Shown here piece after piece: positions 27,532 to 58,249 of a stretch of 64,000 bases of DNA (within the stretch, counting starts at the first letter, position 1; every line of letters starts with the position of its first letter). The notes beneath the pieces were generated by a model, which was not told the origin of the DNA, did not search any database, and saw nothing but the letters and a program-made list of their open reading frames with translations. Where the stretch lies: positions 85,438,001-85,502,000 of the forward strand of contig NC_086108.1 in the NCBI RefSeq assembly GCF_963921235.1. The letters are read 5' to 3'. The stretch comes from Mobula hypostoma. Taxonomy: Eukaryota. Both the position numbers and the translations under genes were made by a program.

Positions 27532-28832
27532 CTTAAGATTTAATTATTACCCTATGGTTGACCCTCTTGACCCACTCAACACATTTCTCTCCATCCCTAT
27601 GATTGAAAGCGGTGATAAGTAAGGTAATTGCTTTCACCAGCTCTCCATTACCAGTGTTGGTTGTCTGTTGTATCTGGCGATGACCAAAACCTGTACGGGA
27701 AGAGTTTTATAGTAAAAAAGCCAATACACTGGGGCAGGTCCTCTTTCTTGGCCTCAAAAATCTTGGCCCAAAGGTAGGAGAAATCGTCGTGACTGAAACT
27801 TCCTTGGCTGCAGTGGATCGCCACGACATCTTCTGCTCTTGTCACGTCCTTCCCTCTCTGTGAAGTGTTGCAGCACCACCTTCTTGGCTGTTGGATCTTG
27901 TAATTGATCTCATCCGCCCAGTCTTTCGGAACTGGTTTCACATGCTGAGGTATGCATATCCCTACCTCATCGGGGTTGGAGGTTTCTGGCTACCTTCACC
28001 TGGTTTTGCCTGCATGTCAAAGCAGTGTACCGGGGTGTGGCCACTGTCGCATACAACCTGTTACTTGGAGCCACAGGTGAGAGCTGGGTGGCAGGTGGGG
28101 ACCAAAGGTGGATGAGCTACCCCTGGGTGGAGCACGACAAGCCCACCACCAGAGGTGCTACCCCTCCCTTGACACCCCATACACCCCTTCCTACCAGTAC
28201 AGCCTGGGATTCGCTGCAACTCGCTGATCCTCATGCAGAACATGTGAAGGCCAGCCCTTTCTGGGTCTTTTTAAAGAAAGTGACCTTGATGAGGAAGTTG
28301 GAGGGTGGGTTAGTAAGTTTGCTGATGGTACAAAGGTTGGGAGTTACATTATGGATAGTCTGGAGGGTTGCCAGAGGTTACAGTGGGGCATCAATAGGAT
28401 GCAGAACTGGACTGAGAAGTGGCAGATGGAGTTTAACCCAGGTAACTGTAAAGTGGTTCATTTTGGGAGGTCAAATTTGAAGATAGAATATTGTATTAAT
28501 GCTAAGACTCTTGGCAGTGTGGAGGTTCAGCGAGATCTTTGGATCCATGTCTATAGGACACTCAAAGCTGCTGCGTAGGTTGACAGTGTTGTTAAGAAGG
28601 TGTATGGTGTGTTGGCCTTCATCAACCGTGGGATTAAATTCATCAATCATGGGATTGATGTGATGTTACAGCTACATAGGATGTTGGTCAGACCTCACTT
28701 GGAGTATTGTGTTCCGTACTGGTCCCTTCACTACATGAAGGATGTGGATAATATATAGAAAGAGTGCAGAGGAGATTTACAAGGATGTTGCCTGGATTGG
28801 AGATCCTGCCTTATGAAAATAGGTTGAGTAAA

Positions 28833-29718
28833 GCAACACACATCAAAGTTGCTGGTGAACGCAGCAGGCCAGGCAGCATCTCTAGGAAGAGGTACAGTCG
28901 ATGTTTCGGGCTGAGACCCTTCATCAGGACTAACTGAAAGAAGAGCTGGTAAGAGATTTGAAAGTGGGAGGGGGAGGGGAAGATCCAAAATGATAGGAGA
29001 AGACAGGAGGGGGAGGGATGGAGCCAAGAGCTGGACAGGTGATTGCCAAAAGGGATACGAGAGGATCATGGGACAGGAGGCCCAAGGAGAAAGAAAAGGG
29101 CGAAGGGGGTAAAAACCCAGAGAATGGACAAGAGGTATAGTGAGAGGGGCAGAGGGGGAAAAAGGAGAGAAAGAGAAAGAATGTGTGTATATAAATAAAT
29201 AATGGATGGGGTACGAGGGGGAGGTGGGGCATAACAGAAGTTTGAGAAGTCAACGTTCATGCCATGAGGTAGGAGGCTACCCAGACGGAATATAAGGTGT
29301 TGTTCCTCTAAGGTGAGTGTGCCTTCATCTTTACAGTAGAGGAGGCCGTGGATAGACATATCAGAATGGAAATGGGATGTGGAATTAAAATGTGTGGCAA
29401 CTGGGAGATCCTGCTTTCTCTGGCGGACAGAGTGTAGGTGTTCAGTGAAATGATCTCCCAGTCTGCGTCGGGTCTCGCCAATATATAGCAGGCTACATCG
29501 GGAGCACCGGACGCAGTATATCACCCTAGCCGACTCAGAGGTGAAGTGTCACCTCACCTGGAAGGACTGTCTGGGGCCCTGAATGGTGGTAAGGGAGGAA
29601 GTGTAAGGGCATGTGTAGCACTTGTTCCGCTTACAAGGGTAAGTGCCAGGAGGGGGATCGGTGGGGAGGGATGGGGGGGACGAATGGATAAGGGAGTCGC
29701 GTAGAGGCTTCTCATGTT
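28833..29718 (-). mobile_element. Penelope-like family-1 insertion (Cys-rich linker, GIY-YIG domain, pLTR)
   Basis: GTYPCKRNKCYTCPY and IYCVRCSRCSLLYIGETRRRLGDHFTEH ... EEQHLIFRLGSLLPHGMN; 13-bp TSD taggttgagtaaa (28820-28832, 29719-29731). Confidence 0.92.
28896..28931 (-). ncRNA. Minimal type-I hammerhead ribozyme motif
   Basis: Minus strand AGTC-CTGATGA-A-GGGTCTCAGCCC-GAAACATC-GACT; core intact, helix-III palindrome changed from ACGU to ACAU. Confidence 0.7.
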
Positions 29719-46841: not shown

Positions 46842-46886
46842 CATCCCTGATGAAGATGGCAGAGTTTGTCATTGAAACGTTGGTTG
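46842..46886 (+). ncRNA. Minimal type-I hammerhead ribozyme motif (family 2)
   Basis: CATCC-CTGATGA-A-GATGGCA-GAGTT-TGTCATT-GAAACGTT-GGTTG; 7-bp stem II, ACGU palindrome, imperfect stem I. Confidence 0.65.
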
Positions 46887-52752: not shown

Positions 52753-55256
52753 TTTTGCAGTAGCAGGAACAGATATTAATGATGAACTTCAACACCCCCT
52801 TCAATGTTCTAGCATTGTCAATGGTTGAAAAAAATGGTACCTTCATAAAAAAACCTCAGACTTAGCACAAAAGGTGTGGTCTACCAGGCAGTCGTCATAC
52901 CAGCATGCTCTCTCTGACTCTGAGACGAAAATATTCTACTGCAGGCATCTCAAGGTACTGGAAAAGTATCGCCAGTGTTGTCCATGCAAAATTCTCTACA
53001 GGAAGGACAAGTGTAGCAATGGGCAACTTGTGCAGTACTGAAACTTTGGTTGTGATCTGTTGGCTCTAGTTGGGAAGGGTACATTGATTGCATGTCCGAT
53101 AATAATCTTCCAAAAGAAATGTACCATTGGAATTCCATCATATATGTTCCAGGTGTATTTATGTCAGGGCTGTTGACTGAAATGAAGAGCATTCTCAGAA
53201 AAATAAAGCAGGCATTTAGGAGGTACTGAAATCTGTATTCCTCCTCCACCATCAAATCACAATGTGTTAATGAAAACACAAAGGAACTACAGATAAATTA
53301 CTTTAATTAGCTCTTCAGCAATCTGCCAGGTTAGCCCTCAAATTGATATGTGCTCATCCACCGCAATCCCAAGGTGATTTCCTCTTAAAGCTTTTACTGT
53401 TCTGTTCTAATCATCACCTTGAACCTTACTGTCATGTGAAAAACTGTACGCAATGAATTTTGTTAACACAGAACAAAGAATAGCAAAGTACAGGAAAGAG
53501 ACCTTTTGGCCTGTGACGTTATGCTGAACTAATAAAATTAGTAATCAAATGTCCAGTAAAGCTAATCCCTTCTGCCTACACAATGTCCATATCCTTCTAT
53601 TCCTTGTGCTGATCTAAAAGCCTCTTGAGCTCTGCTATTATACTTGCCTCCATTACCACTCCCAATAACCAGTCAGTGGTGTAGTGCCATCCACACCGGA
53701 CTTCAGGGCTAGTGATTAGTGATTAAGGCTGGCTCTTTGTATGCTTTCCATCTGTGCAGGATTGAGCATTGAGCTAGTAGCTCGGCCTTGTAAAAGACAA
53801 ATGTTAAAGAAACTACCAGGTTGCCGGCCAAAGAGCCACAAGGCACAGAGAACAACTATATATATTATGTTTTATACATATTATATTTTATATTTTTTAT
53901 TTTATATTTTTTATATTTTAGGAGAAATTTTGGGAGTGCAGAGTTTGTGTGTTCCTGTCAGGATTAAAGGCAAAGTGATTAGGAATAAGGAACCTTGGTT
54001 CTCAAGGGATATTGTAACTCTGATAAAGAAGAAGAGGGAGTTGTATGACATGTATAGGAAACAGGGAGTAAATAAGGTTCTTGAGGAGTATAAAAAGTGC
54101 AAGAAAATACTTAAGAAAGAAATCAGGAGGGCGAAAAGAAGACATGAGGTTGCCTTGGCAGTCAAAGTGAAGGATAATCCAAAGAGCTTTTACAGGTATA
54201 TTAAGAGTAAAAGGATTGTGAGGGATAAAATTGGTCCTCTTGAACATCAGAGTGGTCAGCTATGTGCGGAACCAAAAGAAATAGGGGAGATCTTAAATGG
54301 TTTTTTTGCGTCTATATTTACTAAGGAAACTGGCATGAAGTCTATGGAATTAAGGGAAACAAGTAGTGAGATCATGGAAACTGTACAGATCGAAAAGGAG
54401 GAGGTGCTTGCTGTCTTGAGGGAAATTAAAGTGGATAAATCCCCGGGACCTGACAAGGTGTTCCCTCGGACCTTGAAGGAGATTAGTGTTGAAATTGCAG
54501 GGGCCCTGGCTGAAGTATTTAAAATGTCGCTGTCTACAGGTGAGGTGCCGGAGGATTGGAAAGTGGCTCATGTTGTTCCGTTGTCTAAAAAAGGATCGAA
54601 AAGTAATCCGGGAAATTATAGGCTGGTAAGTTTAATGTCAGTAGTAGGTAAATTATTGGAGGGAGTACTAAGAGACAGAATCTACAAGCATTTGGATAGA
54701 CAGGGACTTATTAGGGAGAGTCAACATGGCTTTGTGCATGGTAGGTCATGTTTGACCAATCTATTGGAGTTTTTCGAGGAGGTTACCAGGGAAGTGGATG
54801 AAGGGAAGGCAGTGGATATTGTCTACGTGGACTTCAGTAAGGCTTTTGACAAGGTCCCGCATGGGAGGTTAGTTAGGAAAATTCAGTCGCTAGGTATACA
54901 TGGAGAGGTGGTAAATTGGATTAGACACTGGCTCAAAGGAAGAAGCCAAAGAGTGGTAGTAGAGAATTGTTTCTCCGAGTGGAGGCCTGTGACTAGTGGT
55001 GTGCCACAGGGATCAGTGCTGGGTCCATTGTTATTTGTCATCTATATCAATGATCTGGATGATAATGTTGTAAATTGGATCAGCAAATTTTCTGATGATA
55101 CAAAGATTGGAGGTGTAGTAGACAATGAGGAAGGTTTTCAGAGCCTGCAGAGGGACTTGGACCAGCTGGAAAAATGGGTTGAAAAATGGCTGATGGAGTT
55201 TAATACAGACAAGTGTGAAGTATTGCACATTGGAAGGACAAACCAAGGTAGAACAT

Positions 55257-55527
55257 TTAAACGCAAACAACAGGAATTCTGCAGATGCTGGAAATTCAAG
55301 CAACACGCATCAAAGTTGCTGGTAACGCAGCAGGCCAGGCAGCATCTGTAGGAAGAGGTGCAGTCGACGTTTCAGGCCGAGATCCTTCGTCAGGACTAAC
55401 AGACGTTTCAGGCCGAGACCCTTCGTCAGGACTAACGTTAGTCCTCGGCCTGAAACATCGACTGCACCTCTTCCTACAGATGCTGCCTGGCCTGCTGCGT
55501 TTACCAGCAACTTTGATGTATGTTGCT
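55257..55527. mobile_element. 271-bp fold-back family-1 pLTR insertion with tandem hammerheads
   Basis: Perfect 14-bp TSD ccaaggtagaacat (55243-55256, 55528-55541); inverted arms 55299-55381 and 55444-55527. Confidence 0.95.
55362..55433 (-). ncRNA. Two tandem minimal hammerhead cores
   Basis: Minus strand AGTC-CTGACGA-AGGGTCTCGGCCT-GAAACGTC / TGTT-AGTC-CTGACGA-AGGATCTCGGCCT-GAAACGTC-GACT. Confidence 0.75.
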
Positions 55528-58249
55528 CCAAGGTAGAACATACAGGGTTAATGGTAAGGCACTGAGGAGTGCAGTGGAACAGAGGGATCTGGGAATACAG
55601 ATACAAAATTCCCTAAAAGTGGCGTCACAGGTAGATAGGGTCGTAAAGAGAGCTTTTGGTACATTGGCCTTTATTAATCAAAGTATTGAGTATAAGAGCT
55701 GGAATGTTATGATGAGGTTGTATAAGGCATTGGTGAGGCCGAATCTGGAGTATTGTGTTCAGTTTTGGTCACCAAATTACAGGAAGGATATAAATAAGGT
55801 TGAAAGAGTGCAGAGAAGGTTTACAAGGATGTTGCCAGGACTTGAGAAACTCAGTTACAGAGAAAGGTTGAATAGGTTAGGACTTTATTCCTTGGAGCGT
55901 AGAAGAATGAGGGGAGATTTGATAGAGGTATATAAAATTATGATGGATATAGATAGAGTGAATGCAAGCAGGCTTTTTCCACTGAGGCAAGGGGAGAAAA
56001 AAACCAGAGGACATGGGTTAAGGGTGAGGGGGGAAAAGTTTAAAGGGAACATTAAGGGGGGGCTTCTTCACACAGAGTGGTGGGAGTATGGAATGAGCTG
56101 CCAGACGAGGTGGTAAATGTGGGTTCTTTTTTTAACATTTAAGAATAAATTGGACAGATACATGGATGGGAGGTGTATGGAAGGATATGGTCCGTGTGCA
56201 GGTCAGTGGGACTAGGCAGAAAATGGTTCGGCACAGCCAAGAAGGGCCAAAAGGCCTATTTCTGTGCTGTAGTTTTTCTATGGTTTCTATATATACACCA
56301 CTCATGGTAGTGCATCTGTGTAAAAAGAAACAACTTGCCCTGTACAACTCCTTTGAACTATGTCCCCTCTCATGGCTTCTGGTATTAGACATTTCAATCC
56401 TGGGGAAAAGATAGTGGGCACTTTGTTATTTTCTATTTCATTCTCTAAACAAAAATAAGGCTAGTTTTGTGGTTTGGAGTTTGGCTGAGTAAAAACTGGT
56501 TTGACAAAGCTTAGGTATTGAGTAATTCCTTTCTGTCAAACCTGTAGATTTCATGTAATACAAGAAATTTAGAGAGTTGGACAGGGACATAAAGTGGTAA
56601 CATAATGGGGCAATTTATGTATCTCAGTTGTAGAATAAAATATGAATGTCCGAGTTTATCAACAGTGAGTCTGATTAACTTAATGAAAAAGGCAAAATAG
56701 CTTTATCTTAAATTACTCTTGTCTAAATTCCAAAAAAAAAACTCCCACAGATATAGAGCACTGTATTAAGGAATGTTTTTGTGGAAAGAGATTAAAGGAC
56801 TTCTGGTACAAAAGCATGATTTTATTAGTTGTGAAATTAAATGATTAAATCATACTCGAAGAAATTACCATGTATCTCCTTCCAGCAAAACTGTGTTCAT
56901 TATCCAACTGCAAACTTAGGTAAAGATAGATCGATGGGAAAATTCTGAAATTCAGGCTGCTGTTGTTCAGCCTAACTGATTACAGGTAAGTGATTCTTGT
57001 CAGTGTTGTTTTAAGGTCACAAAGAAAATCTTTCAGCATCTCAGCATTCCAATTCTTTTATCCTTAGCCATTAGGACTTCCAGCTTCACTGTGTCTCATT
57101 GTGCTCCTGGAGCTCTTTTACTCTGCAGTTCACTCACTTTGTTTTGTCAGTCGGATTTTCCTGCCTTTATATGTCACTCACACCTCCACTTACTTGCAGC
57201 CCTTTTTAATCCTTATTTTAATTGGATCTCTTTGTTTCCCACACCATTTAGATTCTCTCATCTCGTCATGTCACTCCTGTTCTTTGCCTCAGGTGGGTTT
57301 CTTAGTTCTCAGCCAGGTGAACTGCTGTGTGAAAAAACACTGATCTGCCTCAGAAAAAACAAAAATGACAGACTGAGTCATACTTGGGTTGGAATGTGTT
57401 TCCTGGAAAAACAATATGCAAAAGTGAAGGATATGTGTGGAAGAAGAAGCTAGAAGAAGACCGTAAGACTTTAGCAATGATCGAATGATCAATGATCTCA
57501 ATTCAGCCTGTTGAGTCATCATGACTGATTTATTTATTTTCCCTCTCAACCCCATTCTCCCACTTTCTCCACGTTACGTTTGATGTCCTTACTCATCAAG
57601 ACCTATCAGCTTCCGCTTTAAATATACCCAATAACTTGGCCTCCCCAGCCGTCTGTGGCAATGAATTCCACAGATTCACCACCCTCCGGCAAAGAAATAT
57701 GATCGGCTTAGATGAGGAGCAGAGACATAAATTTGGATAGCAGGGTTTAAAAATGTAAAGAAAACAGATTAAGGGAGGGGCAGCATGACTATTAACAGAG
57801 GATCAGACAGTTATCAAAAGTGATGATTTATCCTCAGATGAAAGGACTGAGTCAATTTAGTTGGAAACCTGCAAGAAAGATTTATAATTAGAAATCTTTG
57901 AATACCTTTAGAACAAAAGCATGACGCAGAACTATTTAGCAAACAGGTTTAGCTTAGGAGTGAAGAGAGTGCCAATTCCTGGGAAAATTTAATTGCTAAG
58001 AAAGAAGAGTAGAATAATTTTATGTTCTAAAAAGGGTAAATTGGAGCCATTGCAGGATTTCTTGAAACAGTCACATTAAAATGGGTATCCAGGCAAAAAA
58101 CTTTGTTTGATCTGACAGTTCAAGTTAATCTGAGAAGCAGGTCTATCTGGAGACTGGAATGCAATTGAATGCAAGCTATCATATGCAATCAAATTCACTT
58201 TTGTGGCTGATACCTAGAATGTTTAGCACTTTGCTGCCATGCTGGGCAA

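What the first reader, a model, noticed from the sequence alone, without database searches (positions are those of the whole stretch)
55257..55527. 271-bp fold-back insertion with tandem hammerhead ribozymes joined exactly at the cleavage site
Seen: the insert sits in a young CR1 ORF2 between perfect 14-bp TSDs. It has inverted arms of about 83 bp, an 18-bp palindrome aggactaacgttagtcct (55428-55445) at the inversion point, and two head-to-tail hammerhead cores on the minus strand. The upstream core stops at GAAACGTC (55402), the predicted GUC cleavage position, and a second core follows 5 nt later. Established: minimal Penelope-type hammerheads have a palindromic helix III and cleave better as dimers. 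Inference: the junction may be a fossil of a self-cleaved RNA end used in template jumping, and the tandem pair could form a dimeric ribozyme in cis through the two ACGU palindromes.
Basis: partly seen in the sequence, partly recalled or inferred. Interest (0 to 1): 0.8.

Follow-up and report, generated by a model that had tools for sequence, protein, structure and literature searches.

The report
Penelope insertion joined at ribozyme cut
This is one insertion of a very common Penelope-type jumping gene with a familiar mirror-image shape; its doubled ribozyme motif is joined at the predicted self-cut site, where such joins are about four times over-represented in this genome and may record RNA that was really cut, but the pair is predicted not to work as a ribozyme where it sits.

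Summary
The anatomy is real: 271 bp in CR1 ORF2, 14-bp TSD, fold-back, two minimal hammerhead cores. It is the end (pLTR) of a Neptune-type Penelope-like element with at least 33,483 exact cores in this genome. Fold-back, one-sided tail and TSD are family routine and published. Among tandem junctions of this class, 14 of 93 other events end at the cut base or one before it, about four times expectation after microhomology control (p about 1e-4). A second, non-overlapping set peaks elsewhere, at the helix I base (27 of 53), with only 5 of 53 at the cut. A 4-bp stem also ends at the cut base, so hairpin slippage is a live rival. Odds for this junction: cleavage fossil 0.38, hairpin slip 0.30, chance 0.25. 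The cis dimer is not supported: the upstream core lacks its helix I partner and the inverted arm buries the site. Reads were uninformative. The scan noted similar tandem and fold-back inserts before on other DNA.

The parts
55243..55256 (+). left target-site duplication (14 bp)
   Evidence: exact direct repeat
55528..55541 (+). right target-site duplication (14 bp)
   Evidence: exact direct repeat
55257..55298 (-). 42-nt PLE tail, present on this arm only; 3' end of the element
   Evidence: arm reaches +103 of the reference copy while the other stops at +68; same asymmetry in 15 of 15 family fold-backs examined
55299..55365 (-). arm 1 body downstream of the cut site; helix I 3' strand at 55365-55361
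   Evidence: alignment to an intact copy
55366..55400 (-). downstream minimal hammerhead core (CUGACGA 55393-55387, GAAA 55373-55370, C17 55366); one G-to-A change at 55383 weakens stem II
55401..55401 (-). single extra base at the tandem junction, likely non-templated
   Evidence: does not match the family sequence on either side; 13 of 95 junctions carry a 1-nt insertion
55402..55436 (-). upstream core, ending exactly at C17 (55402); no helix I 3' strand
55428..55445 (.). 18-bp palindrome at the head-to-head junction (centre 55436/55437)
   Evidence: the same palindrome at two other places among the first 50 of 518 listed
55437..55527 (+). inverted arm: third copy starting at the same base, 12-nt deletion removing the CUGACGA box, no tail
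53723..55256 (+). host CR1-type ORF2, upstream part with RT domain
55528..56116 (+). host ORF2, downstream part, same frame
28831..29500 (-). longer copy of the same family in the window, with GIY-YIG remnant upstream of the hammerhead (28927-28900)

Best explanation
The insert is the terminal repeat of a Penelope-like retrotransposon, likely pasted in one event in which both nicked target strands would prime reverse transcription, and its extra ribozyme core likely arose when the enzyme ran off one RNA and jumped onto the end of a ribozyme-cut RNA. Shown: family identity, TSD, one-sided tail, three segments starting at one base, the junction at C17, and the genome-wide excess of such junctions at -1/0. 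Inferred: two primings at the element's two start sites give the arms and the tail; synthesis of arm 1 passed through an uncut core to the common 5' end, added one base, restarted at C17 of a 5' cleavage fragment, copied 35 nt and joined arm 2 head to head. The product is a passenger, predicted to fold into one long hairpin that buries the only complete site. The identity as a PLE by-product is about 0.93 sure and is shared with the first two rivals; the number below is for the cleavage step.
For: Family: the core lies about 300 nt after the stop of an ORF with RT motifs, a CxxxxCxxC linker and a GIY-YIG remnant (PF01541 E 0.002 and 0.0009, both under the curated cut-off). Architecture: 518 and 1059 head-to-head junctions near the core against 3 and 0 in reversed controls; 15 of 15 examined have the tail on one arm, 9 of 15 an exact TSD of 12-16 bp. 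Junction survey, set A (second unit starts 5 or more nt before the core anchor): 99 events at 98 loci; of 95 in range -17..+40, 9 end at 0 and 6 at -1, against 1.6 per position. Without this locus: odds ratio 3.9 for -1/0 (p 1e-4) and 3.7 for 0 alone (p 0.003) in a model with microhomology and trend; -1/0 is the best of all 2-nt windows. It holds for junctions without microhomology (10 of 63, this locus included), for distinct junction types (11 of 82), against local background (11 of 40), and for short and long second units separately (6 of 37, 8 of 56). The break does not track the start of the second unit (rho -0.08), as expected of a fixed RNA end. Pooled with set B over -12..+18: 19 of 116, p 2e-4. 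In vitro the PAc protein extends both target strands and its hammerhead cleaves when protein is present (PMC11167929). R2 RT adds non-templated bases and jumps to RNA ends (PMC4117753); this is an analogy, not shown for PLEs.
Against: Set B (second unit starts 2 nt or less before the anchor): 5 of 53 at -1/0, p 0.26; p 0.03 only after removing its main peak of 27 at +6/+7. No hard edge: 8 events at -4..-2 and 7 at +1..+3; after weighting -1 (8.0) exceeds 0 (6.0). A GACG/CGUC stem closes exactly at C17. In the 11 -1/0 loci where BLAST resolved the opposite arm, none begins at +1. Copies running into unrelated DNA show no peak at 0 (about 3 of 17 at -1/0, by eye, first 100 of 182 rows). None of the first 100 of 33,483 cores listed ends at the cut. 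For PAc, cleavage was not needed, uncut RNA was the main template and no RNA-seq read ends were found at the site. Minimal hammerheads cleave poorly in vitro. About a quarter of -1/0 junctions are expected by background alone.
Confidence: 0.38

Rival explanations
1. Same insertion, but the extra core came from hairpin-guided slippage: the growing strand folded on itself, let go at the base of a stem and restarted upstream. No cleavage is needed.
For: Set B peaks at +6/+7, the 3' base of helix I, joined to its 5' base (27 of 53), so structure does set tandem junctions in this family. The sense strand folds into a rod whose inner GACG/CGUC stem first closes at x=0 and whose outer stem closes at +5. 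No asymmetry around the peak.
Against: The +6/+7 class keeps a fixed register, whereas -1/0 junctions restart 5 to 31 nt before the anchor, not at the 5' base of the inner stem. The DNA hairpin at x=0 is weak (-2.5 kcal/mol). The class that this stem would predict (restart inside the CUGA box) was outside my patterns and is untested.
Confidence: 0.3
2. Same insertion, ordinary restart at a position that falls on C17 by chance.
For: Junctions occur at almost every position from -18 to +40; with an odds ratio near 4 about one in four at -1/0 is background; the locus was picked because of its position.
Against: The excess persists without this locus under every control tried.
Confidence: 0.25
3. 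The tandem is a working dimeric ribozyme in cis, possibly a budding retrozyme.
For: Both ACGU palindromes and the upstream catalytic core are intact; a one-site fold (4-bp helix III, helix I from the upstream 5' and downstream 3' strands) can be drawn and is 3.9 kcal/mol better than the monomer in the isolated tandem.
Against: The second site cannot form; the one-site fold is 8.7 kcal/mol above the ensemble alone and 50 in the insert; the whole insert folds as one -192.5 kcal/mol hairpin; the tandem alone folds no better than shuffles (z 0.59); the junction is single-copy. Nearest-neighbour energies penalise all hammerhead folds, so the 8.7 figure is soft.
Confidence: 0.03
4. Assembly or sequencing artefact at an inverted repeat.
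For: No read or contig bridging the junction was seen.
Against: Exact TSD, arms that differ at several bases, one-sided tail and hundreds of like structures.
Confidence: 0.04

Closest known systems
Complex tandem/inverted insertions of endonuclease-bearing Penelope-like elements (Arkhipova et al. 2013, PMC3846280; Craig et al. 2021, PMC8557442; passages read)
   Same: Inverted 5'-truncated copy joined head to head, palindrome at the junction (an 18-bp one is described for Pen2_Av), 30-40-bp tail on one end, TSD, partial tandem.
   Different: Here the whole insert is 271 bp with no ORF, the TSD is 14 bp (8-10 in the rotifer cases) and the tandem unit is only the 35-nt ribozyme core ending at C17.
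[quoted passage not shown]
   Same: Short helix I, extra base before stem II, no helix III loop, palindromic 15.1-16.1 stretch; dual motifs on opposite strands were already noted.
   Different: G10.1-U11.1 instead of G-C in all three copies here; the upstream core has no helix I 3' strand; those parts report no junction statistics.
PAc (Poseidon of Anolis carolinensis) in vitro system (Frangieh et al. 2024, PMC11167929; parts 1-2 of 4 read; supplement with Fig. S2 not seen)
   Same: Two internal start sites about 110 nt past the ribozyme that define the tail; both target strands cut and extended; protein-assisted hammerhead.
   Different: Different clade; that work found no RNA ends at the cut site and no need for cleavage, whereas the survey here finds a modest excess of genomic junctions there.
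Animal non-LTR retrozymes (Li et al. 2026, 10.64898/2026.07.22.740005; part 1 of 5 and passages read)
   Same: PLE-derived tandem hammerhead units, also reported for one cartilaginous fish.
   Different: Retrozyme units are 51-972 bp with a complete ribozyme in each and are amplified; this unit is 36 bp, incomplete and single-copy.
[quoted passage not shown]
   Same: Non-templated base followed by restart on another template end.
   Different: Shown for R2, not for a PLE; use of a cyclic-phosphate end is untested.

Membership tests
EN+ Penelope-like element (pLTR fragment) | Sequence is the 3' pLTR of an ORF with RT and C-terminal GIY-YIG endonuclease | tested here: met
   Longer copies carry RT motifs and GIY-YIG about 300 nt upstream of the core; Pfam GIY-YIG hits are weak, below cut-off, and Pfam found no RT family in the partial stretch
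EN+ Penelope-like element (pLTR fragment) | Inverted 5'-truncated copy, one-sided tail, TSD | tested here: met
   description
Neptune clade | [quoted passage not shown] | tested here: met
   CxxxxCxxC before the GIY-YIG domain; feature shared with Nematis
Neptune clade | RT phylogeny groups with Neptune | not tested
   no reference set and no tree; PDB search gave no hit
Minimal type I hammerhead | CUGANGA, stem II, GAAA, UH, helix I, palindromic helix III | tested here: met
   met for the downstream core, with one stem II mismatch; Rfam has no matching model
Minimal type I hammerhead | Self-cleavage | not testable with these tools
   needs in vitro transcription
Double (dimeric) hammerhead in cis | Two helix I duplexes and two active sites around a shared helix III | tested here: not met
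   bases after upstream C17 cannot pair with the downstream 5' strand
Double (dimeric) hammerhead in cis | Active fold accessible in the transcript | tested here: not met
   predicted only: 50 kcal/mol above the ensemble in the whole insert
Non-LTR retrozyme | Two or more tandem units each with a complete ribozyme, amplified as a family | tested here: not met
   upstream unit incomplete; exact junction once in the genome
Non-LTR retrozyme | Circular RNA produced | not testable with these tools
   only assembled contigs available

The most novel reading that the evidence does not exclude
Tandem junctions in this genome are a fossil record of in vivo cleavage by a minimal Penelope hammerhead: roughly one in nine such restarts used a ribozyme-cut RNA end as acceptor, so the PLE reverse transcriptase jumps onto cleavage products inside the integrating particle. 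This would be genomic evidence that the cut RNA enters the transposition cycle and a way to map active ribozymes from assemblies alone.
Probability: 0.4. Interest if true: 0.65.

Novelty: new member of a known kind. Interest (0 to 1): 0.38.

Why it matters
The role of the hammerhead in Penelope-like elements is open: it is conserved, cleaves poorly alone, and was dispensable in the one in vitro system. A fourfold excess of junctions at the cut site, if it replicates and survives the hairpin control, shows that cleaved RNA is present and used during integration, and it can be tested cheaply in any genome with many copies. The second peak at the base of helix I shows a separate route to tandem ribozymes that could seed retrozyme-like arrays. 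The locus itself is a dead passenger that interrupted one LINE copy.

Tried and rejected
Rfam scan: no hammerhead model hit; the MIR1144 hit reflects the long hairpin. Read support: 24 runs listed, all assembled contigs; two lays (7 run slots over 6 distinct runs plus one repeat: X1, X3, X4, X7; X1, X2, X4, X9) showed only short repeat pieces and nothing bridging the junction, which says nothing either way. Cap signature at the common 5' end: in the first 100 of 1134 rows about 67 were true truncations, preceded by G 28 (22 after removing six explained by overlap), A 23, T 16, counted by eye; inconclusive. Fold-back junctions as cleavage marks: the first 50 of 1059 loci are dominated by internal inverted microhomologies, and the cut site lies in a GTCGAC palindrome, so I did not use them. 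Other subfamilies: 18 hits, pattern biased toward x=0, not counted as support. One search was meant to find broken cores but the pattern admitted intact ones; used only as a copy count. 3' ends at the cut: mostly short microhomology deletions, about 10 of 100 joining GTC to TTCC, no more than other deletion classes (by eye). Segmental duplication as source of the peak: no shared flank among -1/0 loci. Point mutation of the family A as origin of base 55401: considered, judged far less likely than a 1-nt insertion (inference). PDB search of the RT-EN remnant: no hit.

Full report
Observation. The insert spans 55257-55527 between exact 14-bp repeats, inside an RT-encoding ORF that is open on both sides in the same frame. 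On the minus strand it reads: antisense arm, blunt head-to-head junction in an 18-bp palindrome, a 35-nt core ending at C17 (55402), one extra base, a second core (C17 55366), 67 nt of body and a 42-nt tail. The inverted arm is a third copy that starts at the same base as both cores, has lost 12 nt including CUGACGA, and has no tail. The exact tandem junction occurs once in the 3.48-Gb genome. Positions below: x is the last base of the upstream unit with C17 = 0; j is how many bases before the TCCTGA anchor the next unit starts.

What it is. The sequence is the end of a very abundant element: about ten related pieces in this window, 40 fuzzy cores in 480 kb sampled, 33,483 exact 31-nt cores genome-wide. 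Longer copies carry, about 300 nt upstream of the core, the end of an ORF with RT motifs, a CxxxxCxxC linker and a GIY-YIG domain; the Pfam hits are weak and below cut-off. This is the layout of an endonuclease-bearing Penelope-like element, Neptune-type by the linker motif; no tree was built. That the host is a cartilaginous fish is my recall and the wording of earlier AI notes, not a result here.

The fold-back is routine. Two narrow patterns find 518 and 1059 head-to-head junctions near the core, against 3 and 0 in controls. Of 16 such loci examined one was unrelated; 15 of 15 have the tail on one arm and 9 of 15 an exact TSD of 12-16 bp. Inverted pLTRs, junction palindromes and the one-sided tail are published (passages of PMC3846280 and PMC8557442). 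In vitro the PAc protein cuts and extends both strands and starts at two internal sites whose spacing is the tail (PMC11167929). Two primings, one at each start site, would give this architecture; that step is inference. The 2013 paper instead proposes self-priming on an antisense template.

I fetched all loci of the first two and all but three non-array loci of the third, and mapped junctions by script. Dropped: four loci with long unexplained inserts, two duplicate views of one array, and pairs with a degenerate core in between; arrays were counted once (the C67 array as +1, although most of its units read -1). That left 99 events at 98 loci; 95 overlap -17..+40, 94 by their rightmost break. 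Nine end at 0 and six at -1, against 1.6 per position. Without this locus the odds ratio is 3.9 for -1/0 (p 1e-4) and 3.7 for 0 (p 0.003) in a model with microhomology and a smooth trend, and -1/0 is the best 2-nt window. The excess holds for junctions with no microhomology (10 of 63 with this locus), for distinct junction types (11 of 82), against -10..+10 alone (11 of 40), and for j 5-8 and j above 8 separately. x does not correlate with j. So junctions are not random, and about three quarters of those at -1/0 belong to an excess.

Results against. Set B, a non-overlapping search with j of 2 or less (67 matches, 60 loci, 7 dropped for inserts over 5 nt), peaks at +6/+7 with 27 of 53 and has 5 of 53 at -1/0 (p 0.26; 0.03 after removing the main peak). 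That pattern also excludes blunt junctions that put T three bases before the anchor. Pooled over -12..+18 the -1/0 excess remains (19 of 116, p 2e-4). The +6/+7 class joins the two ends of helix I, which fits hairpin-guided slippage without any cleavage. Folding shows that an inner GACG/CGUC stem closes exactly at C17, so the same kind of process could favour x = 0. What argues for an RNA end is that -1/0 junctions restart anywhere from j 5 to 31, while the hairpin class keeps a fixed register. There is no hard edge on the 3' side of the peak, opposite arms do not begin at +1 (0 of 11 resolved), ends into unrelated DNA are not peaked at 0 (by eye), and the PAc study found no RNA ends at the site and no need for cleavage (its supplementary figure was not seen).

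The cis dimer. A double hammerhead needs each 5' helix I strand paired with the other copy's 3' strand (established). The upstream core is followed by UGUUA, so the second site cannot form. A one-site fold that would cut at 55366 can be drawn; it lies 8.7 kcal/mol above the ensemble in the isolated 87-mer and 50 in the whole insert, where the inverted arm pairs with the site. The energy model penalises hammerheads generally, but the further 40 kcal/mol from the arm is robust. The plus strand has no core.

Mechanism and odds. One integration event, likely with two primings; arm 1 copied an uncut core to the common 5' end (31 of 94 second units start at j 5 or 6; a cap signature was not clear), added one base and restarted at C17. 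Cause of the restart: cut RNA end 0.38, hairpin slip 0.30, chance 0.25; working cis dimer 0.03; artefact 0.04. These odds are judgement built on the odds ratio.

Novelty. The locus is a new member of a described kind. Six literature searches listed no paper mapping PLE tandem junctions to the hammerhead cut; I read parts or passages of seven papers, no supplements, and most subscription journals are outside the library. PMC2377424 (passages) places a promoter in the pLTR and leaves the basis of tandem formation open. Earlier notes of this scan describe similar inserts in this and other genomes and are unchecked leads; the statistics above are my own. Score: 0.38, carried by the family-level signal and not by the locus.

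Noticed in passing
G000 genome-wide; loci L232-L285: A distinct class of tandem duplications copies almost exactly the hammerhead from one end of helix I to the other (27 of 53 in set B end at +6/+7). The upstream unit keeps its helix I 3' strand, so these are better candidates for full cis dimers than the present locus.
   Followed up: partly
L143 (G000:C67:45319297-45321459): Array of about 48 units of 44-45 bp, each a hammerhead core ending at -1 or +1 with no helix I 3' strand; satellite-like expansion of a junction near the cut site.
   Followed up: no
window 55400, 55436, 55437 and family-wide: 5' ends cluster at one or two bases about 35 nt before the cut (31 of 94 second units), inside TCAGTT, which resembles an initiator (motif recalled) and also follows a pyrimidine tract plus AG like a splice acceptor.
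   Followed up: partly
window 28831-29500 (minus): 5'-truncated copy of the same element with a GIY-YIG remnant.
   Followed up: partly
window 46847-46885 (plus): A different hammerhead-like motif (CTGATGA, longer stem II, GAAACGTT) that does not belong to this family.
   Followed up: no
L119, L120, L121 (small contigs C112, C123, C148): Cores recur at near-identical spacings of about 4.2 and 2.8 kb on three small contigs, suggesting a larger repeated unit.
   Followed up: no
first 100 of 182 rows: Recurrent short deletions just past the core, each between 2-4-nt direct repeats, about 10 of them removing +1..+11.
   Followed up: no
window 55304-55311 and 55515-55522: The two arms differ at a site that varies in the family (GCGTG against GTATG), whereas arms usually agree; two templates or two later changes.
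   Followed up: no
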